Below, piece by piece: positions 41,654-55,394 of a stretch of 64,000 nt of DNA. This DNA is from Candidatus Enteromonas sp. (lineage in GTDB: Bacteria; Bacillota_I; Bacilli_A; RFN20; CAG-826): the NCBI GenBank assembly GCA_034171505.1, contig JAXFGC010000006.1, positions 11,382 through 75,381 on the forward strand, given 5' to 3'. The position numbers and the translations under genes were made by a program. The stretch's first letter is position 1; each line of letters starts with the position of its first letter. The notes beneath the pieces are model-generated. The model searched no databases, was not told the DNA's origin, and saw only the letters and a list, made by a program, of their open reading frames with translations.

Positions 41654-42817
41654 CTACTTATTTTCGTCTTCGGCGAGAACTTGGCGAAGAAGGCGGGTCA
41701 TGGGGCCAGTTCCGTAATTGAGGGTTTGGGTCGCCATCACATAACAAATGCCATTCTTCGGATCGACCTTAATGTAAGTCCCTAAAGCCCCGTCCCATCC
41801 AAATTCGCCTTTCGCGACAATATGGTTTGCTTTCGGATCGTCCAGCTTAATTCGAAGCAAATTCGCATAGCGATATCCGGGCAGTTCCTTCCAGGGAAGA
41901 ACTCCAACGCTTTCGTAATAATCCGGGTTCACCCAACGCTCGAAGGTGTCGGGAGCGACCAAACCCTCGCCTTTGTTCAATAAACATTGGGCAAAACGCA
42001 GCATGTCATCGAGCGTGCTAAACAAACCCGCACCGCCGAAACAACAAGAGTTGTGGCGACCATCATCCGAAATTCCAAGATGGAATCCCTTTTGCGGAAT
42101 CAAGCCTTCTGGGGTTTTCGCGTATGCGGTTGCAACCCGATGTCTTTTTTCTTCCGGGACTTCAAATCCCGTATCCTTCAAACCAAGGGGCTTGAAAATC
42201 ATTCGATCAAAGATTTTATCGAGGGATTCTCCATAAGCGACTTCCAAGACAGCACCCAATACATCCGCGGAGATGCTATAACGGAACTCGCTCCCCGGGT
42301 CGGCACATAAAGGCACCTTACCGAGTTCAAGAGCGAGGTCCACCGCGGTCATTGGATGCTCGCTCAAAAGAGTCTCCTCAATCTTGTACAACAATTCACC
42401 GCATTTTCTTCCTGTAAGGATGGAGCCATCGGGATATGATAGACCCGAACGCATCATCAAGAGATCTTGGACCAGCAAATCCCGTTTTGCAGGACGAATG
42501 GACTCACCATCTTCCACCAGTGGATTCGCGAACGTCGGAAGGAAATCCTTCACGGGTTGATCCAAACGGATCTTTCCTTGTTCGCAGGCAATCATCGCGG
42601 CGAACGAAGTGAAAATTTTCGTACAACTGAAAATACGGAAAACGGTCTCACGGGAGATGGGCAAACGCTTCTCGATGTTTTGGTACCCCGCCTGCCAATA
42701 TTGGGTTCCTCCCTTGCCGGAAATTAGGATCGAATAACAGGGGAGCTCCGAGGATGCCGCGGCATCGTCAATTAACTTTTGAACTTTTTCGGTGATATTT
42801 TTGGAATAAAGACTCAT
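41654..42817 (-). CDS. Serine hydrolase (beta-lactamase/transpeptidase-like, class C family)
   Basis: S-x-x-K motif FSCTKIFTS near the N-terminus, with length and pattern typical of AmpC-like esterases. Confidence 0.8.
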   Translation of the reverse strand: MSLYSKNITEKVQKLIDDAAASSELPCYSILISGKGGTQYWQAGYQNIEKRLPISRETVFRIFSCTKIFTSFAAMIACEQGKIRLDQPVKDFLPTFANPLVEDGESIRPAKRDLLVQDLLMMRSGLSYPDGSILTGRKCGELLYKIEETLLSEHPMTAVDLALELGKVPLCADPGSEFRYSISADVLGAVLEVAYGESLDKIFDRMIFKPLGLKDTGFEVPEEKRHRVATAYAKTPEGLIPQKGFHLGISDDGRHNSCCFGGAGLFSTLDDMLRFAQCLLNKGEGLVAPDTFERWVNPDYYESVGVLPWKELPGYRYANLLRIKLDDPKANHIVAKGEFGWDGALGTYIKVDPKNGICYVMATQTLNYGTGPMTRLLRQVLAEDENK

Positions 42818-43019
42818 GGGAAAAGTTTAGGAGTTTTCCTTGAAAAGAAAAAGCAAAATGAAGCCGAATTTTCTTAACAAATTTCTGGATCGAAATGACC
42901 AAAAAACCAAAAAGAAAGGGGGCATCTATGCGATTTCAACATTTTCCTATATTTGTTTCTACAAAACCCAATAGGAAAGAGAGCAGTTTTCCCCTACAAT
43001 AATCCCCAGGAATTCCATT

Positions 43020-43937
43020 ATGAAAGACTTCAAAGAAATCCGCATCGTCGACAACTTTTATCAATCTTCTTCTTTCTTCCCGATGCCCTTGACCCTCATC
43101 GGCACGTTAGATGAATCCGGAACCGTAACGAGTTTCGGCGCTTATTCGTTAGTGTTCCCCTATTACATCGCCGGAAAAGAGTATTACGCGATGGTCCTTG
43201 AATGCCGCAACTCCTCAAACACCTGCAAAGGGCTATTGCGACATGGCAAATGCACCATCAACTTCCTTCCCTACACCAAAAAGAACTTCAAGAACCACGT
43301 CGACATGGGATTCCCCGGCGACACCATCGAAGAAAAGAACAAAAACTTGATTTTCACTCCTGTGGACAGCCTCTCCCAAGAACTCGATCCCGAACACCGT
43401 TACCCCAAGGTCCTCAAGGAAGCCCTCCAGGTCATGGAATGCACCTGGATGCGGGAACTCGACGGAGCGGAAAACGACGTCGTCCAAGATGAATACGAAG
43501 GTCCGTACCACGACTTCAACGGCATCACCTCAAAATACGGAGCCCACTTCATCCTTCAAATCGATCACATTCTATTAAAAGGAAAATACCAAGAAGCCTT
43601 GGTCCACGGGGCAACCAGAAAGAACTTCTGCCCTTTGCCCACCAATTGGGGGTATCGCGATTCCCGTTACTTCTGGTGCTCCCCCTATCACAAGCCAGAC
43701 GCAGTTGGAATTCCAAATCGAGAAATTGACTTAAGTTCCCTCCATTACGCCGCGAAACGTCTCAATACAAAAGTTCGTTTCACCGACGACGCCCTCCTGA
43801 CAATCGCGGGAGTTCCACGTCCCTTCCTCAAACTCGTCCTTTCCAAATGTGCCGAGTGGGCGGAAGAAAACGGGGTTGAGGTAATCACCGCAAAAGAAAT
43901 GCAAATCATTAACGACAAGAGGCGAAAAGACAAATAA
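43020..43937 (+). CDS. Flavin reductase-like (FMN-binding split-barrel) protein with a ~120-aa C-terminal extension
   Basis: The N-terminal FFPMPLTLIGTLDESGTVTSFGAYSLVFPY...CTINFLP matches the P-x-P-v-x-l-v-t-T...G..N..p.S pattern of flavin reductase domains. I cannot assign the C-terminal region. Confidence 0.45.
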   Translation: MKDFKEIRIVDNFYQSSSFFPMPLTLIGTLDESGTVTSFGAYSLVFPYYIAGKEYYAMVLECRNSSNTCKGLLRHGKCTINFLPYTKKNFKNHVDMGFPGDTIEEKNKNLIFTPVDSLSQELDPEHRYPKVLKEALQVMECTWMRELDGAENDVVQDEYEGPYHDFNGITSKYGAHFILQIDHILLKGKYQEALVHGATRKNFCPLPTNWGYRDSRYFWCSPYHKPDAVGIPNREIDLSSLHYAAKRLNTKVRFTDDALLTIAGVPRPFLKLVLSKCAEWAEENGVEVITAKEMQIINDKRRKDK

Positions 43938-44040
43938 GCCCCAATTCAAACAACCTCCCTTTCTGCCTTGGCGCTTGCTTTGGGTTCTCCTCGAGGAAAC
44001 CGCGGGCGAGCGGGCGCATTCCGCGTATAATAGGAACAAT

Positions 44041-45201
44041 ATGGATCCCAAGAAATTCCACAAACCATTTCAAAACATCGTCGCAACGACCTTCTCGGGA
44101 GAAAAACCCCTCCCCGAAGGCACCTATGATTTTTCCATTGGCGATCCCGATTTCTCCACGGACGAAACCATCATTCGTTACGCCTTTGCTAAAACTCTCG
44201 AAGAAGAAACCCATTATGGCGTCCCATCAGGAAAGAAAGAGCTTAAAGAAGCAATCGTGGACTTCCATAACTCCCGTCTTGGCCAAAACATTTCCATAAA
44301 TAACGTCCAAATCACCTCTTCGGCTTCCCACGCGATGTTCCTTGCCATGAAGGCTCTCCTAGACCCAGGAGACGAAGTCATTCTTTTCGCCCCTTATTTT
44401 GCCAACTACTTTGACCAAATTACCCTAAACGAAGGGGTTCCTGTCATTGTAAATACCCATTACGAGAATTCCTTTGAACTGGTCGAAGAAGAAATTGAAG
44501 CCAAGATCACCCCAAAGACCAAGGCCATCATTTTCAATAACCCCGCGAACCCAAGCGGGCACCTCTATTCCCATAAATCATTAGAGATCCTTCGCCGCGT
44601 CGCCATTCGCCATGATTTGATCGTTTGCTGCGACGACATCTATACGACTTATATCTATAACGGAGAGGTTTTCGAAACCCTCGCTAATCTTCCAGACATG
44701 GCCTCTCGTTGCATCCAAGTTCGTTCCTTCTCCAAAGACAGCATCATGACGGGTTGGAGAATCGGGTATTTGGTCGCGGACAAAGAGCTCATTGACGTTA
44801 CCAAAGCCATCAATGAATCCATCGTTTATTCCCCTTCCGTTATCAGCCAAAACGCCGCGATTGCCGCCCTTGCAAATTTCGATGAAATCGCAAAAAGAGT
44901 GCAGAACGTATATCGAATTCGTCTCCAAACCGCCTTTGAAGAAATTCAAAAATCCCCCTATTTCGATTGCCTGGCGATCGAAGGGACTTTCTATATTTTC
45001 ATGAATATCGAAAAGACTGGATTGAGCGATAAAGAATTCGCTTCCTACGTTTTGGAAAACGCTCACGTCAAAGTCTTCCCCGGATCTTTATTCGGAGGCG
45101 AGGAATACTCCCGTTTTGTCCGCCTTGCCATCAACATGGGCGAGAAACGAATTCGCGAAGCCTTCGCCGCGCTGAACGCCTTAACTTACCCTGGAAAATA
45201 A
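44041..45201 (+). CDS. Class I/II pyridoxal-phosphate-dependent aminotransferase
   Basis: FNNPANPSGH and SFSKDSIMTGWRIGY (PLP lysine). I trimmed the start to ATG 44041 (MDPKKFHKPF). Confidence 0.88.
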   Translation: MDPKKFHKPFQNIVATTFSGEKPLPEGTYDFSIGDPDFSTDETIIRYAFAKTLEEETHYGVPSGKKELKEAIVDFHNSRLGQNISINNVQITSSASHAMFLAMKALLDPGDEVILFAPYFANYFDQITLNEGVPVIVNTHYENSFELVEEEIEAKITPKTKAIIFNNPANPSGHLYSHKSLEILRRVAIRHDLIVCCDDIYTTYIYNGEVFETLANLPDMASRCIQVRSFSKDSIMTGWRIGYLVADKELIDVTKAINESIVYSPSVISQNAAIAALANFDEIAKRVQNVYRIRLQTAFEEIQKSPYFDCLAIEGTFYIFMNIEKTGLSDKEFASYVLENAHVKVFPGSLFGGEEYSRFVRLAINMGEKRIREAFAALNALTYPGK

Positions 45202-45203
45202 AC

Positions 45204-47390
45204 ATGGAACTCCTTTCTCCCGCTGGTAATTTCGAAAGCGCCATCGCCGCGTTTCACGGTGGAGCGGACGCCATCTATTTAGGCGGAAAAAACTTTTCCG
45301 CTCGTATGGGAGCCGATAATTTCTCCGAAGAAGAGCTCACCAAAATCGCGGATTTTGCCCATCAAATCGGCAAAAAGGTTTACGTGACCCTAAATACCCT
45401 GCTATTTGAGGATGAGTTTGAACCTGCGGTGGAATTCGCCACTTTCCTTTGTTCCGTTGGCATCGATGCGATCATCGTTCAAGATCTTGGACTTGCTTAC
45501 TATCTTCATCAGGCATTGCCGGAACTCCCCTTGCACGCCTCAACCCAACTTAACTGCCATAACATCGAGCAAGCCAAAGTATTAAAACAAATCGGATTCA
45601 CCCGCGTGGTATTAGCCCGCGAAGCCAACAAGGACTTCATCTCCGAAGTCAAGGCAATAGGACTTGAAGTCGAAGTCTTTATCCACGGGGCTTTATGCGT
45701 TTCCTATTCCGGCAACTGCCTCCTTTCCTCCTTCAATGGTGGGCGAAGCGGCAACCGCGGAAGGTGCGCTCAGCCGTGCCGAATGAAGTACGATATTTTC
45801 GAGGATGGAGTCAAAATTAACGAGGACGTCTATGCGATTTCGACCAAAGATCTCCAAACAATCGACGAAGTAAAAGAACTCCAAAACGCAGGCGCGGACT
45901 CCTTGAAAATCGAAGGAAGACTCAAATCCAAAGAATACGTGTACCAAACCGCGAAGGCCTATTTCGACGCCCTTCATTCCGAAGTCAATCCTCAAGAAAA
46001 AGCCAAACTACAAGCCCTTTATTCCCGTGGATTCACGAAAGGTTATTTATTTGATGAATCACCGTTCCGTTTATTATCTCAAGGCACTTCTTCCCATCAA
46101 GGCGAAGAAATTGGAGTGGTCACCCAAGTCCGTAAGGAGCGGGTCACGATTCATTTAAGTAAAACCGTCCATCGCTTGGATGGCATTCGCTTCCTTTCCG
46201 GCGATCCCTTTGGAGTCACTTTGGAAAGGATCTTCGTCAAAGGCAACCCCGTAGAAGAAGCATTCCCTGGAGATTTCATCGATGTTCCAAAAATCGAGAA
46301 CGCGCAAGGCTTAGAACACGTCAAAGTGATTCGGACGACCAATTACGCCCTCGAGGAATCCATCGACGAAGAGATTCGGAAGCCTTTCCGCGTTCCCATT
46401 AAGGGTACCTTGACCATCAAAATCGGGCAGCCGCTTCGCTTGGAAGTCGAATATCTCGGCGTGAAAGTGGAGGCGGAAGGCGGAATCGCGGAAGCGGCGA
46501 AAACCAGCGGAACCCCCGTCTCCCGCATTCAAGAACAGCTCGCTAAATCGGGCAACTATCCCTATTTTATCGATGCCGTAACCGTAAATGGTGACGATGC
46601 ATTCATTCCAATTTCCTTACTCAATAATCTTCGAAATCAAGCGTATGAAGTCCTCTCTCAGAAGTTGATTGTCCGCCGCAACCCCATCAGGAAAGAGTAC
46701 GTTGCGCCCGCTCCGAAAGAGGTCCGAGAGCCGTCAAAAATCTATGTTTCTTGGAAAGCGGATCCAAACGATTCTCCTGTTAATTGGAATCGCGTAATCA
46801 CGGGAAAACCAAAACACGCCCCTTTCGAAATCGTTCCGTTCGCGTGCTTAATCCCCGAATCCTCCAACGCAATTGCTTCTCCTTATTGCAACATCACGAA
46901 CAGTTTCGCGATAGATGCATTCGTCTCTCTAGGGTTCTCCGGAATCGTCTTCTCTTTGGAACTCGATCAACGTTCCATTTCCGCGACCATCGACGCTTAT
47001 CGGTCCCGTCACGATGAACTTCCTGCTCTTGGGATGTTTGTCTATGGCAGACCGGAAGTCATGATTATGAAGAGCTGTCCCATTGGAACGCTTACCCATT
47101 CGAAAACCCTTCATTGCCAAAAATGTCATCAGCACTCCTATTGCCTAGAGGATGCGTTCGGGGCACGCTATCCCGTTCTTGGGGATTCCAGTTGCACCAC
47201 CCGCATCTATGGCAGTAAGAAAATCAATCTGTTCGAATACACGATTCCCCTCCGTCAAATGGGGATTACGTTCTTCCTTGCCCACTTCACCGACGAAAAC
47301 GAGGAAGAAATCGAGAACGTGAAGAACGAAAACGTTCCTTTTAGCCCAAAAATCCACACTTCCGGCCATTTCCGCAAACGAAGTTTGTGA
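45204..47390 (+). CDS. Peptidase U32 family Fe-S protein (long, two-lobed, RlhA/YdcP-like length)
   Basis: MELLSPAGNFESAIAAFHGGADAIYLGG, and a four-Cys pattern C-x6-C-x15-C-x3-C (CVSYSGNCLLSSFNGGRSGNRGRCAQPC, nt 45696-45779). The C-terminal lobe carries further Cys (CPIGT...CQKCHQHSYC). Confidence 0.85.
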   Translation: MELLSPAGNFESAIAAFHGGADAIYLGGKNFSARMGADNFSEEELTKIADFAHQIGKKVYVTLNTLLFEDEFEPAVEFATFLCSVGIDAIIVQDLGLAYYLHQALPELPLHASTQLNCHNIEQAKVLKQIGFTRVVLAREANKDFISEVKAIGLEVEVFIHGALCVSYSGNCLLSSFNGGRSGNRGRCAQPCRMKYDIFEDGVKINEDVYAISTKDLQTIDEVKELQNAGADSLKIEGRLKSKEYVYQTAKAYFDALHSEVNPQEKAKLQALYSRGFTKGYLFDESPFRLLSQGTSSHQGEEIGVVTQVRKERVTIHLSKTVHRLDGIRFLSGDPFGVTLERIFVKGNPVEEAFPGDFIDVPKIENAQGLEHVKVIRTTNYALEESIDEEIRKPFRVPIKGTLTIKIGQPLRLEVEYLGVKVEAEGGIAEAAKTSGTPVSRIQEQLAKSGNYPYFIDAVTVNGDDAFIPISLLNNLRNQAYEVLSQKLIVRRNPIRKEYVAPAPKEVREPSKIYVSWKADPNDSPVNWNRVITGKPKHAPFEIVPFACLIPESSNAIASPYCNITNSFAIDAFVSLGFSGIVFSLELDQRSISATIDAYRSRHDELPALGMFVYGRPEVMIMKSCPIGTLTHSKTLHCQKCHQHSYCLEDAFGARYPVLGDSSCTTRIYGSKKINLFEYTIPLRQMGITFFLAHFTDENEEEIENVKNENVPFSPKIHTSGHFRKRSL

Positions 47391-47479
47391 GGTTTACTCT
47401 TTTTCCTTTCATTTTCTTGTTTGCACAATAAAATGATTTTTCAGTACTCTTGTACGGCTCTCCGCCCGAGGAAAACCAC

Positions 47480-48571
47480 ATGGACGAACTTACCAAAGCA
47501 CGCAAAGACATCGACGCGATCGACGAAGAACTGGCCGCGTTATTTACCAGGCGAATGAAAGCGGCCGCGAACATCGCCTCCTTCAAAAAAGAACATGGGC
47601 TCCCCATTTTTGACGCGAGCCGCGAAAGCGAAATCATCACCGAAGAAGTCCAGCATATCGAGGATCCCGAACTTAAGGAATTCTATGTTTCCTTCCTTCA
47701 TGACCTCATGAAAACTTCCCGTGCCTATCAGGCCAAACTCCTGGAAGGAGCCAAGTACGCTTATTGCGGAGTCCCCGGCGCATATGCCTATATCGCCGCC
47801 CATCGAATGGCTCCCACCTCTAAGCTGATCTCCTTCCCAACCTTCGAAAAAGCCTATAAATCTGTTTTGGACGGGGAATGCGATGGAACGCTTTTGCCTT
47901 TGGAAAACTCTTCCGCGGGAGACGTGGGCCAAGTAATGGATTTGGCGTTCTCGGGAGAACTTCGCCTCACCCGCATGATTGACTTGGAAATCTCCCATGC
48001 CCTTTTGGCAAAACCCGGAACCAAGAAAGAAGACATCGTCGAAGTGTGGAGTCATCCCCAAGCCCTCGCCCAATGCAATGACTACCTAAAGAGCCTTGGC
48101 GTTGCCTGCGTTGAAGCTTCTAACACCGCGGCGGCTTGCCAACTCCTGTTGTCCTCCCCGCGAAACGATGTTGCGGTCATTGCGTCTCCCGAAAATGCGG
48201 AGATTTATGGCCTTGAGATTTTAGAGAAATCCATCAATTCGATGGCGAATAACACTACACGTTTCGGTTTATTTTCCCGTGCAATGGCCCTTCCTTCCCC
48301 TCAAACAAAGGACCAATTCTCCGTTTTGGTTTTCACCGTGAAGAACGAAGCGGGATCTTTGGCGAAAGCCCTCAACATCATCGGGGCGCACGGGTTCAAT
48401 ATGCGGAACGTCCGTAGCAGACCCTTAAGAGGCCTAATTTGGAACTACTACTTCTACGTAGAACTCGAAGGCAACATCAACACGATAGACGGCAAGGAAC
48501 TCTTTGAGGAACTTTCCACTTTCTGCGATAAACTCAAGTTGCTTGGAACCTACGCCCGGGAGGAACAATGA
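47480..48571 (+). CDS. pheA: Bifunctional chorismate mutase/prephenate dehydratase (P-protein)
   Basis: AroQ-type CM N-terminus (RKDIDAIDEELAALFTRRM), a PDT domain with TRF (NNTTRFGLF), and a C-terminal ACT domain. I trimmed the start to ATG 47480 (GAGGA SD). Confidence 0.9.
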   Translation: MDELTKARKDIDAIDEELAALFTRRMKAAANIASFKKEHGLPIFDASRESEIITEEVQHIEDPELKEFYVSFLHDLMKTSRAYQAKLLEGAKYAYCGVPGAYAYIAAHRMAPTSKLISFPTFEKAYKSVLDGECDGTLLPLENSSAGDVGQVMDLAFSGELRLTRMIDLEISHALLAKPGTKKEDIVEVWSHPQALAQCNDYLKSLGVACVEASNTAAACQLLLSSPRNDVAVIASPENAEIYGLEILEKSINSMANNTTRFGLFSRAMALPSPQTKDQFSVLVFTVKNEAGSLAKALNIIGAHGFNMRNVRSRPLRGLIWNYYFYVELEGNINTIDGKELFEELSTFCDKLKLLGTYAREEQ

Positions 48572-49566
48572 AAATCTCCGTTCACGCCTCTCGGCCGTAC
48601 AACATTCACATTGAACGGGGACTCGCCGCGATGATTCCCCATCTTTTGGGCATTCATTCCAAATCGCTTATCTTAACCGATTCTGGAGTCCCTTCCATTT
48701 ATGCCGAATCTCTCCAAAAACGCATACCGAACTCGCTTATTTTCGTAATTCCCGAGGGCGAAAAAAGCAAATCTTCAGACTCTTTTTTAAAGATTCTTTC
48801 ATTCTTGGTCGCGAACCATTTCTCTCGGAAAGATTGCCTCATTTCCTTGGGCGGAGGAGTCGTTGGGGATCTCGGGGGATTTGTCGCTTCCACCTACATG
48901 AGGGGCATCGCTTTCTATAACATCCCGACCACCCTCCTCTCGATGGTGGATTCTTCCATCGGAGGAAAAACGGGGATTGATTTTGAGGGATATAAGAACA
49001 TCGTGGGGAGCTTCTATCCCCCCAAAGCGGTGTTCATCGATCCGGATTATTTGTCCACTCTCGACAAGCGACAATTCGCCGCGGGTTTTGCTGAAATCGT
49101 CAAAATGGCAGCTACTCTCGACAAAGACTTCTTTGACGAGATAAAGGCAGGGACTCTCCCCATTGAAATCCAAATCGAAAAAGCCCTTCGCATCAAAAAG
49201 AAAGTCGTCGAAGAAGACGAAAAAGAATCCGGCATCCGGAAAGTCCTCAACTTCGGTCACACCCTTGGGCACGCCTATGAAGTTTGCGGCGACGGACGTT
49301 TCTTGCATGGAGAAGCCATCGCGATGGGAATGCTTCCTTTCTCTTCCCCGGAAGTTCGAGAAGAAATCCAAAACGTGTTGATCCAAAACCGTTTGCCCAT
49401 CGATCCTTCCATTGATGTCGCTCGAATCGAAACGGCTATTCGCCACGACAAAAAAGGGGACGGGGAAACCGTTGATGCCGTTTTTTGCCCCATCCTTGGG
49501 AAATATGAAATCAAAAAATGCTCAATTTCCGAGATTCTTTCCTACCACAAGGAGGTATTCCAATGA
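48568..49566 (+). CDS. aroB: 3-dehydroquinate synthase
   Basis: GGGVVGDLGGF, DSSIGGKTG and the metal ligands HTLGHA...HGEAIA. ATGA overlap with pheA. Confidence 0.92.
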   Translation: MKISVHASRPYNIHIERGLAAMIPHLLGIHSKSLILTDSGVPSIYAESLQKRIPNSLIFVIPEGEKSKSSDSFLKILSFLVANHFSRKDCLISLGGGVVGDLGGFVASTYMRGIAFYNIPTTLLSMVDSSIGGKTGIDFEGYKNIVGSFYPPKAVFIDPDYLSTLDKRQFAAGFAEIVKMAATLDKDFFDEIKAGTLPIEIQIEKALRIKKKVVEEDEKESGIRKVLNFGHTLGHAYEVCGDGRFLHGEAIAMGMLPFSSPEVREEIQNVLIQNRLPIDPSIDVARIETAIRHDKKGDGETVDAVFCPILGKYEIKKCSISEILSYHKEVFQ

Positions 49567-50645
49567 GCAATGTCATCGGCAAAAACATTACGTTAACCCT
49601 ATTCGGGGAAAGCCACGGCCCGTATGTCGGAGCCACTCTTGATGGCCTTCCAAACGGAATTCCGGTTTCGGAAGCGGAGATTCAAAACGAGCTTTCCAAA
49701 CGCCGCCCCTCCTTTGTCGGAGAAACCCCCCGCCATGAAAAAGATGACTTTCAAATCATTTCCGGGGTATTTCAGGGTTTTACCACGGGTGCCCCCCTTA
49801 CGATTTTGATTCCGAACGAAAACGTCAATTCAAAGGCCTACGAAAGCGAGGTTCGTTCCTTCCGCCCGAACCACGCGGATTATGTCGCCCATGAAAAATA
49901 TCATGGATTCGAAGACTACCGAGGGGGAGGACATTTTTCCGGACGCATCAGCGCCGCGATCGTCGCGGTTTGTGCCATCATCAAAACCTATTTGGAAAGC
50001 AAAGGCATCCAAATTGCCTCACATATTCTTTCCGCGGGAGGAATCCTCGATGAAGGATTTGACCCCGTCCATCCCGAAAAACAAGTTCGGAAATTGCTTG
50101 CCTCTTCTTTCCCACTCATCGACCAAAAGAACGAAGAAAAAATGCGTGAACTTTTTGAAAAAGTTGCCAAAGAACACGATTCCCTCGGAGGCCAAATCGA
50201 GACCGCGATTATTGGTCTTCCCGTTGGACTAGGGGAACCTTGGTTTGGCCGATTTGACGGCGTCCTTTCCAACGCGATTATGTCCATTGGAGGGGTACGT
50301 GGGGTGGTTTTCGGCGATATCGATAGTCAGGAAGACCTCCGCGGGTCCTCTTTCAACGATCCTTTCATCCTTGAAGGAGGGGAGGTCAAAACCAAAACGA
50401 ATCATTCGGGAGGAGTCCAAGGAGGCATCAGCAATGGCATGCCCGTCCTCTTCCATTCTTTCGTGAAACCCACCCCCTCGATCGGTCTTCCCCAGCAGAC
50501 CGTTAACGAAAACAAAGAAGCGACCACTTTATCCATCCAAGGACGCCACGATCCTTGTTTCTTACGCCGCGTTACGCCGGTCATTAATGCCTTAACCGCG
50601 TTTGTCACGATGGACTTCCTTTTAGGGGAATTCGGGAGAAAATGA
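49563..50645 (+). CDS. aroC: Chorismate synthase
   Basis: MSNVIGKNITLTLFGESHG and RPNHADY. I trimmed the start to ATG 49563 (AAGGAGG SD, ATGA overlap with aroB). Confidence 0.92.
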   Translation: MSNVIGKNITLTLFGESHGPYVGATLDGLPNGIPVSEAEIQNELSKRRPSFVGETPRHEKDDFQIISGVFQGFTTGAPLTILIPNENVNSKAYESEVRSFRPNHADYVAHEKYHGFEDYRGGGHFSGRISAAIVAVCAIIKTYLESKGIQIASHILSAGGILDEGFDPVHPEKQVRKLLASSFPLIDQKNEEKMRELFEKVAKEHDSLGGQIETAIIGLPVGLGEPWFGRFDGVLSNAIMSIGGVRGVVFGDIDSQEDLRGSSFNDPFILEGGEVKTKTNHSGGVQGGISNGMPVLFHSFVKPTPSIGLPQQTVNENKEATTLSIQGRHDPCFLRRVTPVINALTAFVTMDFLLGEFGRK

Positions 50646-51865
50646 TGAAATATGGCTTAATCGGTGAAAAACTCGGACATTCCTTTTCCAAGGAAATCCA
50701 CGAGGCGCTTGGCAATCCTTCCTACGAACTGAAGGAAATCGCCCCTTCCGACCTTGACTCTTTTTTGCGCGAGAAAGCCTTCCAAGGAATCAACGTCACG
50801 ATTCCATATAAACAAGCGGTCATTCCCTATCTTGATGAAATCTCCACCGAAGCACAAGCCATCGGGGCAGTGAACACAATCACCAATCAAGGTGGCATCC
50901 TCAAAGGATACAACACGGACGCCACAGGATTTTTGGCCCTCGTCGAAGCCCTAAACCTCGATTGTTTCAACAAAACCATCGCGATTCTTGGAACGGGCGG
51001 AACTTCCCATACCGCCGCTTACGTCCTCCAAAAACAAGGGGCCAAGAAGATTTGGATTGTTTCGCGAAATCCAAAAGAAGGCGCCATTACCTATGAAGAA
51101 ATACCACCCGATATCGACATTTTAGTAAATACCACTCCGGTTGGAATGAACCCCGATATCGATGGTATTCCCGTCCGTTTGGATCGTTTCACCTCCTTAC
51201 TTGGGGTCATTGACGTCATCTACAATCCTCTGCAAACCCGCTTGGTTATCGAAGCCAAAAAGAAAGGGATTCCAGCGATTGGAGGACTTCACATGCTCGT
51301 GGGCCAAGCCTTGGCGGCAAGCGAACTTTTCCTCGGTGCTCCTTCTTCATCGTTATCCATTATCGAAAACAATTTGAGAAAACAACGACTCAACATCGTT
51401 CTCATCGGCATGCCTGGATCTGGCAAAACCACGATTGGAAAACGTTTAGCGGAAGAATTATCCCGCCCTTTCTTCGACGCGGATGTCGAACTCGAAAGAG
51501 TCCATCATATTCACATTCCCGACTTCATTCGAGAGCAGGGCGAACCTGCTTTCCGAAAACTCGAAGAAGAAACCATTTTGGAACTATCCAAGAAAACCGG
51601 GGCGGTTATTTCAACCGGCGGGGGCTGCGTCCTGAATCCCGAAAACATGAGACGTCTCTCCCAAAACGGAATCGTCTTCTTCCTCGATCGGGAATTATCT
51701 CGTTTGGTACCGACCACCTCCCGTCCGTTGACAAGCGACGCGGAATCCCTCCGAAAACGTTTCTCTGAACGATACACCCTCTATTGCAAATACGCGGATT
51801 ACAGCGTTTATCCCTGCGAAAATGTTCGATCCGTTATCCGTTTCATCAAAGGAGTTATCCAATGA
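50642..51865 (+). CDS. Fused shikimate dehydrogenase (AroE, residues ~1-245) and shikimate kinase (AroK, ~250-407)
   Basis: AroE: GEKLGHSFSKEIH, NVTIPYK, GYNTD, ILGTGGTS. AroK: NIVLIGMPGSGKTTIGKRLAE and ISTGGG. It is one uninterrupted ORF. Confidence 0.88.
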   Translation: MMKYGLIGEKLGHSFSKEIHEALGNPSYELKEIAPSDLDSFLREKAFQGINVTIPYKQAVIPYLDEISTEAQAIGAVNTITNQGGILKGYNTDATGFLALVEALNLDCFNKTIAILGTGGTSHTAAYVLQKQGAKKIWIVSRNPKEGAITYEEIPPDIDILVNTTPVGMNPDIDGIPVRLDRFTSLLGVIDVIYNPLQTRLVIEAKKKGIPAIGGLHMLVGQALAASELFLGAPSSSLSIIENNLRKQRLNIVLIGMPGSGKTTIGKRLAEELSRPFFDADVELERVHHIHIPDFIREQGEPAFRKLEEETILELSKKTGAVISTGGGCVLNPENMRRLSQNGIVFFLDRELSRLVPTTSRPLTSDAESLRKRFSERYTLYCKYADYSVYPCENVRSVIRFIKGVIQ

Positions 51866-52302
51866 AGATTCTTGTTATCCATGGCCCTAACCTCAATATG
51901 CTCGGCATCCGAGAACCCTCGATTTATGGCCGCCAAACCTATGATGACTTGGTTCGTTATATCCAGGATTACGCGGTAGAAAAAGGCATCGAAGCATCCT
52001 TTTTCCAGTCCAATCACGAAGGGGCGCTCGTTGATGCGATTCAACAAGCTTATTTCGATAAAATCGATGGAATCCTCATTAACGCAGGCGCATACACCCA
52101 TACGAGCATCGCGATTCTGGATGCCTTAAAATCCGTTGGAATTCCCACCGTGGAAGTCCATATCTCAAATCCCAAGGAAAGGGAAGAATTCCGCCACGTA
52201 TCCTTCCTTTCTTTGGCCGCCATCGCGACCGTCCAAGGGAAAGGGTTCCCTGGATATCTGGAAGCCATCGACATTTTGATGTCCCACAAGGAGGGCGAAT
52301 GA
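51862..52302 (+). CDS. aroQ: Type II 3-dehydroquinate dehydratase
   Basis: MKILVIHGPNLNMLGIREPSIYG, NAGAYTHTS, EVHISN. I trimmed the start to ATG 51862 (AAAGGAG SD, ATGA overlap). Confidence 0.93.
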   Translation: MKILVIHGPNLNMLGIREPSIYGRQTYDDLVRYIQDYAVEKGIEASFFQSNHEGALVDAIQQAYFDKIDGILINAGAYTHTSIAILDALKSVGIPTVEVHISNPKEREEFRHVSFLSLAAIATVQGKGFPGYLEAIDILMSHKEGE

Positions 52303-53498
52303 GGGTTCGTATTTCGAAAGGAATCCCATCGGGAAGCAGTGCCTTCCCTCCGTCGAAATCCTTCGCCCACCGATACCTCATCGGAGGGATGCTTGCAGGT
52401 GGTTCGACCATCCATCACCTCGAATACTCCGAGGATGTTTTGGCGACCCTCGATTGTTTATCCGCGTTGGGGGCCTCGATAAATTTAGAAGGGGGTAGCG
52501 CGAAATTTTCCTCAAGAATTCCGATTGAAAACCATCCGATTCTGCCTTGTCGCGAAAGTGGATCGACCCTTCGCTTTTTCCTCCCAATCGCCGCGGCGTT
52601 ATGTCCTTCTTTCTCGTTAACGGGGACCGCCCGCCTTCTTCAAAGGGGGGTTGGTCCTTATCAGTCTTGCCTTTCCAGTCACGGGGTGACAATCGAAAGC
52701 CACGGAAAAGAAATCGTCGTAACCGGACGCCTTACTCCAGGGCATTACGAAATTGATGGCTCAACTTCTAGTCAATACATCACAGGGCTTCTTTTTGCCT
52801 TACCCCTTTTACCGGGCGATTCCGAAATCCATATTTTGGGCGCTCAAGCATCCAAGGATTACACCAACATCACGCGAAAAGTCTTAGCCGATTTTGGCAT
52901 TCGAATCGAAGAGACCCCCTATGGCTATTTCATTCCCGGAAATCAAGAGTATCAAAGCGGTTCGTTTACAGTAGAAGATGATGCCTCTAATGCGGCCTTC
53001 CTCTCCGCCTTTGCTGCGTTAGGAGCGCCTCTATCCTTGCCATCCATTTCCGAAGATTCTTTGCAAGGAGACCGCGTTTTTGCAAAGCATTTCAAAACCT
53101 TGCATGATGGTTTCGCGGAGATTAACGTTGACAATTGCATCGATTTAGCGCCCGTTCTCTTCGCTTTTGCATCGCTCTCTCACGGAGCTAGGTTTACCGG
53201 AATCGAACGATTGTCCCTCAAAGAAAGTTCCCGCGCGGAAGCCATGAAAGAGGAACTTGCGAAAGCCGGAATCCAAGTCGAACTCACCCCTCATTTCGCG
53301 GTAGTTCACCCCTACAACGGAATCCAACAATCTTTCTATTTTGATTCCCATAATGACCATCGAATCGCGATGGCCTTAAGCCTCTTCTCCTTACGAGGCG
53401 ACGTCGAAATCTCCGGGGCGGAAGCCGTAAAAAAATCCTATCCCAGATATTTTGATGAACTTTCCAATCTCGGAATGGAGGTAACCAAGTATGAGTAA
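52299..53498 (+). CDS. aroA: 3-phosphoshikimate 1-carboxyvinyltransferase (EPSP synthase)
   Basis: PPSKSFAHRYLI, DGSTSSQYITGLLFALP, DHRIAMALS. At 399 aa it is somewhat short. Confidence 0.88.
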   Translation: MRVRISKGIPSGSSAFPPSKSFAHRYLIGGMLAGGSTIHHLEYSEDVLATLDCLSALGASINLEGGSAKFSSRIPIENHPILPCRESGSTLRFFLPIAAALCPSFSLTGTARLLQRGVGPYQSCLSSHGVTIESHGKEIVVTGRLTPGHYEIDGSTSSQYITGLLFALPLLPGDSEIHILGAQASKDYTNITRKVLADFGIRIEETPYGYFIPGNQEYQSGSFTVEDDASNAAFLSAFAALGAPLSLPSISEDSLQGDRVFAKHFKTLHDGFAEINVDNCIDLAPVLFAFASLSHGARFTGIERLSLKESSRAEAMKEELAKAGIQVELTPHFAVVHPYNGIQQSFYFDSHNDHRIAMALSLFSLRGDVEISGAEAVKKSYPRYFDELSNLGMEVTKYE

Positions 53499-54360
53499 AT
53501 TACCCAAGCGGATCCTAATTATCGGCCTTGGCCTCATGGGCGGAAGCATCGCGGAAGCCTTAAGCCACAACGGCTACCACGTCGAGGCCATCTCTTTATA
53601 TGAAGAGGAAATCTCTTTTGCAAAAGAAAAGGGATTCATCCAAGACGGCCGAACCACTTTTTCCAAAGAATACCTTGCTTCCTTTCCGTGCTTCCTCTTC
53701 GCCTTATATCCTTCCACTTTGGTGAAATGGATGAAGGAACACGTAAACGACATCGCCCCAAACACCCTCTTAACCGATGTCACGGGCATCAAAGAACCCA
53801 TCATTCGAGAAATTCTTCCTCTTCTCAAAGGCAAAGACATCGACTTCGTCTTCGCTCATCCGATGGCGGGCAAAGCCAGAAAAGGCGTCGGTTACGCAAG
53901 CAAGGATATTTTCAAGGGATCCAACTTCCTAATTACCCCGATTCCCATCAACAAAGAAGAAAACATACGGGCAATCGAAGAACTCGGTCGGACCCTAGGG
54001 TCCGGGCAAATCGTTCGCGTATCCCCCAAAGAACACGATGAAATGATTGCTTACGTCTCACAGTTAACGCATATTATCGCCATGGCGCTCATGAACGCGA
54101 AAAAGGAGACACATTTAGATGAATATACCGGTGACTCCTTCCGTGATTTGACCCGAATCGCCGAAATGAACGACGAGATGTGGCCAGAACTCTTCATAAT
54201 GAACCAAGCCACGCTTCTTCAGCAGATGGATTTGTTCCTCGACGAAATGAATAAAATCCGGGACGCCATCGCCCACGCATCCATCGATGAATTACGAAAG
54301 ATGATGCAATCCTCCACCGTCAGAAGAGAAGCCTTCTCCTCGGAAAGCAAAAATTTATGA
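53491..54360 (+). CDS. tyrA: Prephenate dehydrogenase
   Basis: Rossmann ILIIGLGLMGGSIA, HPMAG, and the conserved SHLPH-like QLTHIIA. Confidence 0.88.
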   Translation: MSKLPKRILIIGLGLMGGSIAEALSHNGYHVEAISLYEEEISFAKEKGFIQDGRTTFSKEYLASFPCFLFALYPSTLVKWMKEHVNDIAPNTLLTDVTGIKEPIIREILPLLKGKDIDFVFAHPMAGKARKGVGYASKDIFKGSNFLITPIPINKEENIRAIEELGRTLGSGQIVRVSPKEHDEMIAYVSQLTHIIAMALMNAKKETHLDEYTGDSFRDLTRIAEMNDEMWPELFIMNQATLLQQMDLFLDEMNKIRDAIAHASIDELRKMMQSSTVRREAFSSESKNL

Positions 54361-55394
54361 ACCTCACACTCACCCGACAACTCCCCACCCCCAAAGAACT
54401 CCGCCAAATGTATCCGATGGACGAAGAATGCGCGGCCATCAAAGCCAAAAACGACGAAAGAATCCGTGCAATTTTCGAAGGAAAAAGCAATCGTTTCCTT
54501 TTGATTATCGGCCCTTGTTCCGCCGATCGAGAAGATGCGGTCATCGACTATATCCTTCGCCTTCGCGAGATTTATCCCCTCATTGAAGACGTCATTGAGA
54601 TTGTTCCTCGCATCTACACGAACAAGCCGCGCACCATGGGCACCGGCTACAAAGGGATGCTCCATCAACCCGATCCCACCCGTTCTCCGGACTTGCTCAA
54701 GGGTCTCATCGCGATTCGCAAAATGCACATGAAAGCCATTCGCGAAACCGGTTTTTCTTGCGCGGATGAAATGCTTTATCCCGAAAACCACGCTTATCTC
54801 GCGGATTGCTTATCTTACGTTGCAGTCGGTGCCCGAAGCGTGGAAGATCAGTTCCATCGTCTCGTCTCTTCAGGAATCGATGTCCCCGTTGGAATGAAAA
54901 ATCCAACTTCCGGTGACTTGTCCGTAATGCTGAATGCGATTCACGCCGCCCAATTCGCCCAATCCTTCATCTACCGTGGTTGGGAAGCCCAAAGCAAAGG
55001 AAATCCCTTAACCCATGGCATTCTCCGCGGATTTGTCGACGAAGAAGGAAGAAGCTCTCCCAACTACCATTACGAGGCCCTTTCCCGCCTTTCAGAAATC
55101 TATACCTCTGAAAACTTTCAAAACCCAGGACTCATCATCGATTGCAATCATTCCAACTCCGGAAAGAAATACCTCGAGCAGATTCGCATCGCCAAAGAGA
55201 TTCTCGTCTCAATGAACCTCAACCCCAACGTCCGTTCCCTCGTGAAAGGACTCATGATTGAATCCTACATCGAAGACGGGTGCCAAAAGATTGGGGAAGG
55301 AACCTATGGGAAATCCATCACGGATCCTTGCCTTGGATGGGACAAGACCAAGGAACTTCTCCTCGAGATGGCCTCGATACTTCGGAAAATGTAA
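54357..55394 (+). CDS. aroF: 3-deoxy-7-phosphoheptulonate (DAHP) synthase, class I
   Basis: LLIIGPCSADRE, NKPRT and the IDCNHSNS pattern. It is the last gene of the aromatic operon. Confidence 0.88.
   Translation: MNLTLTRQLPTPKELRQMYPMDEECAAIKAKNDERIRAIFEGKSNRFLLIIGPCSADREDAVIDYILRLREIYPLIEDVIEIVPRIYTNKPRTMGTGYKGMLHQPDPTRSPDLLKGLIAIRKMHMKAIRETGFSCADEMLYPENHAYLADCLSYVAVGARSVEDQFHRLVSSGIDVPVGMKNPTSGDLSVMLNAIHAAQFAQSFIYRGWEAQSKGNPLTHGILRGFVDEEGRSSPNYHYEALSRLSEIYTSENFQNPGLIIDCNHSNSGKKYLEQIRIAKEILVSMNLNPNVRSLVKGLMIESYIEDGCQKIGEGTYGKSITDPCLGWDKTKELLLEMASILRKM

What the first reader, a model, noticed from the sequence alone, without database searches (positions are those of the whole stretch)
45204..47479. 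U32 Fe-S protein placed directly upstream of chorismate mutase, a possible prephenate-dependent hydroxylase wired to its co-substrate supply
Seen in the sequence:
- A 728-aa, two-lobed U32-family protein lies between the aminotransferase (3-nt gap) and the CM/PDT gene, with no terminator in the 89-nt spacer.
- It carries the four-Cys pattern C-x6-C-x15-C-x3-C (CVSYSGNC...CAQPC, nt 45696-45779) and further Cys clusters in the C-terminal lobe.

Established knowledge:
- E. coli U32 members are not proteases in vivo. They are O2-independent hydroxylation factors: RlhA for 23S rRNA ho5C2501, TrhP for tRNA ho5U34, and UbiU/UbiV for ubiquinone.
- Their activity has been linked to prephenate and the shikimate pathway, and to an Fe-S cluster bound by conserved cysteines.

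Inference: embedding the gene in the operon that makes prephenate would couple the hydroxylase to its co-substrate. The length suggests an RlhA-like rRNA enzyme.
Basis: partly seen in the sequence, partly recalled or inferred. Interest (0 to 1): 0.6.

Follow-up and report, generated by a model that had tools for sequence, protein, structure and literature searches.

The report
RlhA-type hydroxylase inside aromatic operon
A pig-gut bacterium with a tiny genome keeps its only "U32" iron-sulfur enzyme, most likely an oxygen-free ribosomal-RNA hydroxylase, inside the operon that makes prephenate, the enzyme's proposed oxygen donor; relatives show the same pairing in other gene arrangements, which supports that still unproven chemistry.

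Summary
ORF 45204-47390 encodes a 728-aa U32 protein between an aminotransferase gene (2-nt gap) and pheA (89-nt spacer), inside a complete shikimate/Phe/Tyr operon.

By architecture and tree it is a long-form RlhA: U32 barrel with CX6CX15CX3C, DUF3656, then a second degenerate U32 lobe with four invariant Cys. It is the only U32 gene in this 1.37-Mb RF39 'Enteromonas' genome. That genome shows no tRNA-xo5U or quinone genes.

The link to prephenate supply recurs:
- Two congeners share the AT-U32-pheA order.
- At least four other arrangements in the order place U32 genes beside a chorismate mutase.
- In the window's family, U32 and chorismate mutase co-occur almost perfectly: 34 both, 1 and 1 alone, 128 neither.
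- All 28 sampled genomes with the mutase but no chorismate synthase have a U32 gene, in 27 within 3 kb. In ten of ten loci fetched a DASS transporter lies between them.

Caveats:
- Some lineages have RlhA-like genes but no mutase.
- No adjacency was seen outside this order.
- No biochemistry exists for this protein.

The protein is a new member of a known family. I found no paper reporting the linkage. This scan has noted mutase-U32 pairs on other DNA before.

The parts
43020..43937 (+). 305-aa ORF at the head of the gene row; possibly a flavin-reductase-like (split-barrel) protein
   Evidence: It has no Pfam or NCBIfam hit. Language-model look-alikes are flavin reductase (DIM6/NTAB) clusters, score 0.97, which is a lead only. 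It is 90% identical in G053 and was not found beside the operon in G049.
44041..45201 (+). class I/II PLP aminotransferase (likely aromatic/aspartate type); the ORF is open from TTG 43975 and the likely start is ATG 44041
   Evidence: Pfam Aminotran_1_2 at 7e-54 and NCBIfam PRK06348 at 362 bits, below that model's cut-off. Sequence read.
45204..47390 (+). long-form RlhA-type U32 Fe-S protein, 728 aa
   Evidence: AlphaFold2 model has pLDDT 91.7 and pTM 0.90. Foldseek matches the two solved U32 pieces, 5d88 and 4he6.
45426..46058 (+). N-terminal U32 (RlhA1-type) barrel, aa 75-285
   Evidence: Pfam PF01136, 262 bits.
45696..45779 (+). CX6CX15CX3C motif (C165, C172, C188, C192), the presumed 4Fe-4S site
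   Evidence: Invariant in 53 homologues. Aligns with E. coli RlhA C169/C176/C192/C196. C169 and C176 are essential in E. coli (PMC5727448).
46326..46667 (+). DUF3656 domain, aa 375-488, the hallmark of the RlhA subfamily
   Evidence: Pfam PF12392, 67 bits; Kimura 2017.
46821..47387 (+). C-terminal lobe: a degenerate second U32 motif (RlhA2-type) with four invariant Cys (C625, C638, C641, C664; nt 47076-47195)
   Evidence: Second PF01136 match at 23.6 bits. Invariant Cys. The lobe is confidently folded in the model.
47409..47441 (+). A/U-rich hairpin plus U5 in the 89-nt U32-pheA spacer; a possible weak terminator or attenuator
   Evidence: -6.4 kcal/mol, z -3.0. The G053 copy folds at -8.5 kcal/mol, z -4.6. 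G049 has a different hairpin plus U6. No Rfam match.
47480..48571 (+). pheA: chorismate mutase (CM_2) + prephenate dehydratase + ACT; makes and consumes prephenate
   Evidence: Pfam CM_2, PDT and ACT. CM_2 match at window 47501-47731.
48568..55394 (+). aroB, aroC, aroE-aroK fusion, aroQ, aroA, tyrA and DAHP synthase: the rest of the shikimate/Tyr operon
   Evidence: Pfam.

Best explanation
What it is:
- The gene encodes a long-form RlhA-type U32 iron-sulfur enzyme.
- Its parts are an RlhA1 barrel with a four-Cys Fe-S site, a small beta-barrel, DUF3656, and a second degenerate U32 lobe with its own four-Cys site.

What it most likely does (inferred by homology):
- It hydroxylates C5 of the cytidine equivalent to 23S rRNA C2501, giving ho5C, during 50S assembly and without O2.
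- Prephenate serves as the O donor.
- Under the mechanism proposed for the family, prephenate is decarboxylated to phenylpyruvate as its hydroxyl is passed on.

What the gene order does:
- In this Enteromonas clade the gene lies in the aromatic operon, between the aminotransferase gene and pheA.
- The enzyme, the chorismate mutase that makes its donor, and the transaminase that could turn the by-product into Phe are therefore inherited together and probably expressed together.

Shown here: family placement, domain and Cys conservation, gene order, its recurrence, and co-occurrence with chorismate mutase.
Inferred: RNA target, prephenate use, co-transcription, and recycling of phenylpyruvate.
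For: Family:
- Pfam U32+DUF3656.
- 33% identity to E. coli RlhA over 529 aa, the best of the four E. coli paralogues.
- Groups with E. coli RlhA in the tree, SH-aLRT 94.
- Eight invariant Cys, and E157 matching E. coli E161.
- Confident two-lobed model that matches the solved U32 pieces.

Only U32 gene in the genome:
- No TrhO, no TrmR-type methyltransferase and no UbiA were found.
- tRNA or quinone roles therefore lack their usual partner genes.

Linkage:
- Identical AT-U32-pheA order in G053 (71% identity) and G049 (56%).
- Independent metagenome contigs span it.
- Other arrangements in the order:
  - U32 convergent on the aro operon in G006.
  - Chorismate mutase divergent from and abutting long U32 beside aro operons in G101, G112, G154 and G148.
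  - The same in G238, G332 and G277.
  - Long U32 divergent from (TrhP-like)-DASS-mutase in 10 of 10 loci fetched.
- 20 of 77 genomes with a long U32 have CM_2 within 3 kb.

Co-occurrence:
- Genus: U32 in 7 and aroC in 6 of 58 genomes, 5 shared.
- Family f1: 34 both, 1 U32 only, 1 mutase only, 128 neither.
- All 28 sampled genomes with the mutase but without aroC have U32, within 3 kb in 27.
- Five such genomes also lack PDT, PDH and DHQ synthase, so the mutase has no other visible use there.

Published genetics:
- RlhA, TrhP and UbiU/V need prephenate (PMC5727448, PMC6599085, PMC10990095).
Against: - No direct assay exists for this protein, and RlhA catalysis has not been reconstituted in vitro for any member.
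- The nearest orthologues outside the genus (G234, G252, about 50% identity) are not next to their aro operons. The insertion is therefore recent and clade-specific.
- Family f2 has U32 genes in 11 of 11 genomes but no CM_2 and no aroC. CM_1 was absent in the 5 of 5 tested. Most of f5 and class family f14 (12 of 23 with DUF3656, 0 of 23 with CM_2) also have RlhA-like genes without any detected chorismate mutase.
- Among 94 RlhA-like genes outside the order in the class sample, none was seen near CM_2.
- G052 has the aro operon without any U32 gene.
- A conserved hairpin plus U-run between U32 and pheA could uncouple transcription.
- Related genomes are not independent, so the raw counts overstate the statistical support.
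Confidence: 0.6

Rival explanations
1. It is an ordinary housekeeping RlhA orthologue that happens to sit in the aro operon of a compact genome. The adjacency has no functional meaning.
For: - The closest out-of-genus orthologues are unlinked to aro genes.
- No adjacency was seen in 94 RlhA-like genes outside the order.
- Several lineages have RlhA-like genes without a chorismate mutase.
- A possible weak terminator lies in the spacer.
Against: - At least four or five differently arranged U32-chorismate mutase or U32-aro neighbourhoods lie on separate branches of the U32 tree.
- Co-occurrence in family f1 is near-perfect, genome by genome within patchy genera.
- Orphan chorismate mutases are kept only beside U32 genes in genomes that lack both the pathway before and the enzymes after prephenate.
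Confidence: 0.15
2. The enzyme hydroxylates tRNA U34 (TrhP-like), alone or in addition to rRNA, because it is the only U32 protein in the genome.
For: - It is the sole U32 gene.
- Its N-terminal half scores 214 bits on the NCBIfam TrhP model.
- Many relatives carry both a long form and a TrhP-like form, so loss of the latter might be compensated.
Against: - The TrhP score is far below that model's cut-off (534 bits).
- The tree places it with RlhA, not TrhP.
- DUF3656 is specific to RlhA.
- No TrhO, TrmR-type or other xo5U follow-up gene was found in the genome.
- 51 of 58 congeners have no U32 gene at all. Neither modification is therefore essential in this genus.
Confidence: 0.1
3. The enzyme hydroxylates a small molecule (an aromatic metabolite or a free nucleotide) tied to the aromatic pathway, rather than RNA.
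For: - It sits inside a biosynthetic operon next to an aminotransferase.
- A possible flavin-reductase-like gene heads the row.
- Earlier notes of this scan propose free-nucleotide substrates for some double-module U32 proteins. I did not check those notes.
Against: - It is orthologous to long forms that are widespread in the order and class in unrelated contexts.
- It has the full RlhA architecture.
- No extra tailoring genes lie in the operon, which is a plain, complete shikimate/Phe/Tyr set.
Confidence: 0.08
4. It is a collagenase or peptidase, as the historical U32 name implies.
For: The Pfam family name, and reported collagenolytic activity of PrtC and HP0169. Those proteins belong to other U32 subfamilies.
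Against: - No signal peptide is apparent in the sequence.
- The Fe-S Cys motifs are invariant.
- It belongs to the RlhA subfamily, not the PrtC/HP0169 subfamilies.
Confidence: 0.02

Closest known systems
E. coli RlhA (YdcP), 23S rRNA 5-hydroxycytidine C2501 synthase (Kimura et al. 2017, PMC5727448)
   Same: - U32 barrel with the four Cys. C169 and C176 are essential in E. coli and correspond to C165 and C172 here.
- The conserved Glu (E161 in E. coli, E157 here).
- DUF3656 and a Cys-rich C-terminal region.
- 33% identity over 529 aa, and the same tree group.
- The E. coli enzyme needs the shikimate pathway up to prephenate, and Fe-S assembly.
   Different: - E. coli RlhA is 653 aa and has no second U32 motif. 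Its C-terminal Cys spacing (C572, C580, C611, C614) differs from C625-x12-C-x2-C-x22-C664 here.
- E. coli rlhA is not near aro genes.
Long-form RlhA1+RlhA2 proteins (about half of the RlhA subfamily; common in Clostridia and Bacteroidia; Kimura 2017)
   Same: - The same three-part architecture.
- The window protein is one of these. 102 of 221 sampled genomes of its class have such a gene.
   Different: - None has been tested experimentally, as far as I could find.
- In the class sample outside RF39, none was seen beside a chorismate mutase gene.
TrhP (YegQ) and TrhP1/TrhP2 (YrrO/YrrN), prephenate-dependent tRNA U34 hydroxylation (Sakai 2019, PMC6599085)
   Same: - The U32 barrel, the four-Cys motif and the genetic dependence on prephenate.
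- Relatives of the window genome carry TrhP-like genes in the same clusters as the long form.
   Different: - They are about 400 aa with a U32_C domain and no DUF3656, and form a separate tree group.
- The window genome has no such gene.
UbiU-UbiV(-UbiT), O2-independent ubiquinone hydroxylases, with prephenate shown as O donor by 18O labelling (PMC10990095)
   Same: - U32 family, with two Fe-S-bearing U32 modules working together. Here the two modules are fused in one chain.
- This system is the source of the proposed mechanism that yields phenylpyruvate.
   Different: - Lipid substrate, heterodimer and the UbiT partner.
- The window genome has no UbiA-type prenyltransferase.
- Pairwise scores are weak (115 and 44 bits).

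Membership tests
RlhA subfamily of U32 proteins | Peptidase_U32 domain with the conserved CX6CX15CX3C cysteines | tested here: met
   PF01136 at 262 bits. C165/C172/C188/C192 are invariant and align with E. coli C169/C176/C192/C196.
RlhA subfamily of U32 proteins | DUF3656 domain following the U32 domain (unique to RlhA among U32 subfamilies, per Kimura 2017) | tested here: met
   PF12392 at 67 bits, aa 375-488. Statement of uniqueness.
RlhA subfamily of U32 proteins | Conserved Cys cluster in the C-terminal region | tested here: met
   C625, C638, C641 and C664 are invariant in 53 homologues. Their spacing differs from that of E. coli, and the alignment to E. coli C580/C611 is uncertain.
RlhA subfamily of U32 proteins | Groups with RlhA rather than TrhP, UbiU or UbiV in a tree of the U32 domain | tested here: met
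   One group with E. coli RlhA and 23 long forms, SH-aLRT 94 (quick search, one bacterial reference per clade). Pairwise bits: RlhA 230, TrhP 166, UbiU 115, UbiV 44.
RlhA subfamily of U32 proteins | Required for ho5C at 23S rRNA C2501; binds 50S precursors | not testable with these tools
   Needs LC-MS of rRNA, or complementation of E. coli delta-rlhA.
Prephenate-dependent U32 hydroxylases (RlhA, TrhP, UbiU/V) | Activity depends on prephenate supply | tested here: inconclusive
   Only genomic evidence is available. For: operon placement beside pheA, and co-occurrence and adjacency of U32 with chorismate mutase across the order. Against: lineages with U32 but no chorismate mutase.
TrhP / TrhP1 tRNA U34 hydroxylases | About 400-450 aa with the Peptidase_U32_C domain; reaches the NCBIfam TrhP equivalog score | tested here: not met
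   214 bits against a cut-off of 534. No PF16325 hit, and a separate tree group.
UbiU / UbiV | Reaches the NCBIfam equivalog scores; genome makes ubiquinone | tested here: not met
   143 bits against 440, and 69 against 275. No UbiA family gene in the genome, which is 94% complete.

The most novel reading that the evidence does not exclude
In RF39 gut bacteria, chorismate mutase is kept mainly to serve U32 hydroxylases.
- Where the shikimate pathway survives, the RlhA-type gene has been drawn into or beside the aro operon. The window is one such case.
- Where the pathway is lost, an orphan chorismate mutase persists only in a cluster with U32 genes and a DASS-family anion transporter.
- This implies that chorismate (or prephenate) is scavenged from the gut solely as an oxygen donor for RNA hydroxylation.
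- That would be comparative-genomic proof of the prephenate donor hypothesis for RNA-modifying U32 enzymes.
- It would also identify the first candidate chorismate importer.
Probability: 0.4. Interest if true: 0.75.

Novelty: new member of a known kind. Interest (0 to 1): 0.5.

Why it matters
U32 proteins are thought to carry out a new kind of oxygen-free hydroxylation with prephenate as the oxygen donor. This has been shown by labelling only for ubiquinone, and no U32 enzyme has been reconstituted in vitro.

What this locus and its relatives add:
- They give independent, purely genomic support that the RNA-modifying members depend on prephenate. The hydroxylase gene is co-inherited with, and repeatedly placed next to, the enzyme that makes prephenate.
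- This holds even in genomes that have no other use for prephenate.
- They offer compact systems to test: a single-chain two-cluster RlhA, and in relatives a U32-transporter-chorismate mutase set.
- They hint that tiny-genome gut bacteria scavenge chorismate.
- If the proposed by-product, phenylpyruvate, is transaminated by the adjacent aminotransferase, hydroxylation would cost the cell no carbon.

The window protein itself is an ordinary member of a widespread family.

Tried and rejected
- Sequence search of the PDB with the protein and with a 53-sequence profile found no U32 chain. Only the fold search found the two partial U32 structures.
- The genome-contig scan gave a single relative, so I used the genome search instead.
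- The Rfam scan of 42700-47700 found nothing. No T-box or riboswitch was found.
- The promoter and terminator scans were not above shuffled expectation.
- Expression: no RNA holder was listed among public runs, so co-transcription could not be examined.
- A DASS transporter homologue was not found in the window's own genome or in the window. It was also not found beside the long U32 genes of the families that lack chorismate mutase, in the loci I held.
- I checked whether family f2 uses the AroH-type mutase (CM_1) instead. It was not found in any of 5 genomes.
- Literature searches for U32 with chorismate mutase, prephenate or gene neighbourhood found no report of the genomic linkage. This covers only the open-access library held here.
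- I did not compute a phylogenetically corrected association test, because no species tree was at hand.
Full report
**The observation**

ORF 45204-47390 (+) encodes 728 aa.
- Pfam finds Peptidase_U32 (aa 75-285, 262 bits), DUF3656 (aa 375-488) and a second, weak U32 match in the C-terminal lobe.
- The gene upstream is a class I/II aminotransferase. Its TAA stop lies 2 nt before the U32 ATG.
- The gene downstream is pheA (CM_2 + PDT + ACT). Its likely ATG is at 47480, which gives the stated 89-nt spacer.
- After pheA come aroB, aroC, an aroE-aroK fusion, aroQ, aroA, tyrA and a DAHP synthase. The U32 gene therefore sits inside a complete shikimate/Phe/Tyr operon.
- The motif C165-x6-C172-x15-C188-x3-C192 is at the stated nucleotides.
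- Single contigs from independent pig-gut metagenome assemblies of other studies span the aminotransferase-U32-pheA junctions. The order is not an assembly artefact.

The claim of 'no terminator' needs one qualification. No G+C-rich terminator and no Rfam element is present. However, an A/U-rich hairpin (47409-47436, -6.4 kcal/mol, z -3.0) followed by U5 lies in the spacer. It is conserved in the 71%-identical relative, and the 56% relative has a different hairpin followed by U6. It may be a leaky terminator or an attenuator.

**The organism**

- The window is part of a 1.37-Mb, 94%-complete genome.
- Its nearest named relative is a 'Candidatus Enteromonas' MAG, a small-genome gut Bacilli lineage of the RF39 type.
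- Near-identical DNA occurs in pig-gut metagenomes from eight studies.

**What the protein is**

- Among the four E. coli U32 paralogues, fetched from the MG1655 record, the best match is RlhA. It gives 33% identity over 529 aa covering the U32 barrel and DUF3656, at 230 bits. TrhP gives 166, UbiU 115 and UbiV 44.
- In a tree of the N-terminal U32 domain, the window protein, 23 long (670-800 aa) RF39 proteins and E. coli RlhA form one group (SH-aLRT 94). That group is separate from the ~400-aa TrhP/TrhP1-like and ~300-aa TrhP2-like groups.
- Kimura et al. [quoted passage not shown] They also state that about half of its members carry a second U32 motif (RlhA2a/b) at the C-terminus. This is exactly the architecture seen here.
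- The four N-lobe Cys align with E. coli C169/C176/C192/C196. C169 and C176 are essential in E. coli.
- E157 matches E. coli E161.
- Four more Cys in the C-lobe (625, 638, 641, 664) are invariant in 53 homologues down to 34% identity.
- The AlphaFold2 model is confident (pLDDT 91.7, pTM 0.90) and has two lobes. Foldseek finds the only solved U32 pieces, 5d88 and 4he6.
- NCBIfam equivalog scores for TrhP, UbiU and UbiV are far below their cut-offs.

This is the only U32 gene in the genome. The genome shows no TrhO, no TrmR-type methyltransferase and no UbiA prenyltransferase. A tRNA-xo5U or quinone role therefore lacks its usual partner genes. The most likely function is O2-independent formation of ho5C at the C2501-equivalent position of 23S rRNA. 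This is inferred by homology and was not tested.

**Is the link to prephenate supply real?**

Within the genus (58 genomes):
- U32 is found in 7 genomes and chorismate synthase in 6, with 5 shared.
- G053 (71% identity) and G049 (56%) have the same aminotransferase-U32-pheA-aroB...aroF order.
- G006 has a different RlhA lineage, convergent on the end of an aro operon.
- G052 has the aro operon without any U32 gene.
- G011 and G057 lack aroC. Each has a long U32 gene divergent from a DASS-family transporter gene followed by a 91-aa chorismate mutase gene.

Across 301 genomes of the order:
- About 77 have a long U32 gene, and in 20 of these a CM_2 gene lies within 3 kb.
- The arrangements differ and fall on separate branches of the U32 tree:
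  - in-operon, in the window clade;
  - mutase divergent from and abutting U32 beside aro operons (G101, G112, G154, G148; also G238, G332, G277);
  - long U32 divergent from (TrhP-like U32)-DASS-mutase, where the transporter was confirmed in 10 of 10 loci fetched.
- In the window's family (164 genomes), 34 have both U32 and CM_2, one has only U32, one has only CM_2, and 128 have neither. The match holds genome by genome within patchy genera. Only 9 of these genomes have aroC.
- All 28 sampled genomes that have CM_2 but no aroC have U32, and in 27 the mutase is within 3 kb of a U32 gene.
- Five such genomes also lack prephenate dehydratase, prephenate dehydrogenase and dehydroquinate synthase. 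Their mutase therefore has no visible source enzyme or consumer other than the neighbouring transporter and U32 genes.

**Evidence against, and limits**

- The closest orthologues outside the genus (G234, G252, about 50% identity) are not adjacent to their aro operons. The insertion into the operon is recent and clade-specific.
- Family f2 has U32 in 11 of 11 genomes, no CM_2 and no aroC, and no CM_1 in the 5 tested. Most of f5 is similar. Another small-genome family of the class has DUF3656 in 12 of 23 genomes and CM_2 in 0 of 23. All these carry RlhA-like genes with no detectable chorismate mutase.
- Among 94 RlhA-like genes outside the order in a class-wide sample, none was seen near CM_2.
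- Related genomes are not independent, so the counts overstate the significance.
- The RlhA tree is incongruent with taxonomy: three lineages occur in one genus. This points to lateral transfer of these clusters.

**Mechanism proposed**

- Following the mechanism suggested for UbiU/V (PMC10990095), the substrate base is oxidised by two electrons through the Fe-S clusters. Here there are two clusters in one chain, which may replace the heterodimers of UbiU/V and TrhP1/P2.
- Prephenate is decarboxylated and delivers its hydroxyl, leaving phenylpyruvate.
- In this operon the mutase domain of PheA makes the donor. The aminotransferase encoded 2 nt upstream could convert the by-product to Phe, so hydroxylation would act as a side branch of Phe synthesis at no carbon cost.
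- These steps are inference.
- The electron acceptor is unknown. The 305-aa ORF at the head of the row looks like flavin reductases to a language-model search, but it is not conserved in G049, so I give it little weight.

**Novelty**

- The protein is a new member of a known, widespread family.
- The three key papers and a 2024 review do not mention any genomic linkage of U32 genes with chorismate mutase or aro genes. My searches found no other report.
- This scan has noted chorismate mutase-U32 pairs before on other DNA, in at least 115 genomes. One first-reader note describes the U32-DASS-mutase cluster. Those are unchecked AI notes. I verified the cluster independently on my own loci.

Noticed in passing
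L059:2974-8248 (G312); also L037, L044, L056, L060-L065: In RF39 genomes without a shikimate pathway there is a conserved cluster: a long RlhA-like U32 gene divergent from a TrhP-like U32 gene (optional), a 482-aa DASS/CitMHS anion transporter gene and a 91-aa chorismate mutase gene. The transporter is a candidate importer of chorismate or prephenate.
   Followed up: partly
window 43020-43937 (+): A 305-aa ORF with no Pfam or NCBIfam hit heads the gene row. Language-model look-alikes are flavin reductase (DIM6/NTAB) clusters, score 0.97. It is 90% identical in G053, higher than most neighbouring genes, and is absent beside the operon in G049. It could be a redox partner, but that is unsupported.
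   Followed up: partly
window 47409-47441 (+); L058:12016-12048: A conserved A/U-rich hairpin plus U-run lies between U32 and pheA. It is a possible weak terminator or attenuator separating the first three genes from pheA-aroF.
   Followed up: partly
genus-wide: The whole aro operon and the U32 gene are accessory in this genus: 51 of 58 genomes have neither. The genus holds three unrelated RlhA lineages, which suggests lateral transfer of these clusters among RF39 families.
   Followed up: partly
window 50642-51865 (+): AroE and AroK are fused in one 407-aa ORF, and the fusion is kept in all related aro operons compared.
   Followed up: no
order families f2 and f5, class family f14: Small-genome lineages carry RlhA-like and TrhP-like U32 genes but no CM_2, no CM_1 (in the 5 tested) and no chorismate synthase. 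How these enzymes obtain an oxygen donor is unexplained.
   Followed up: partly
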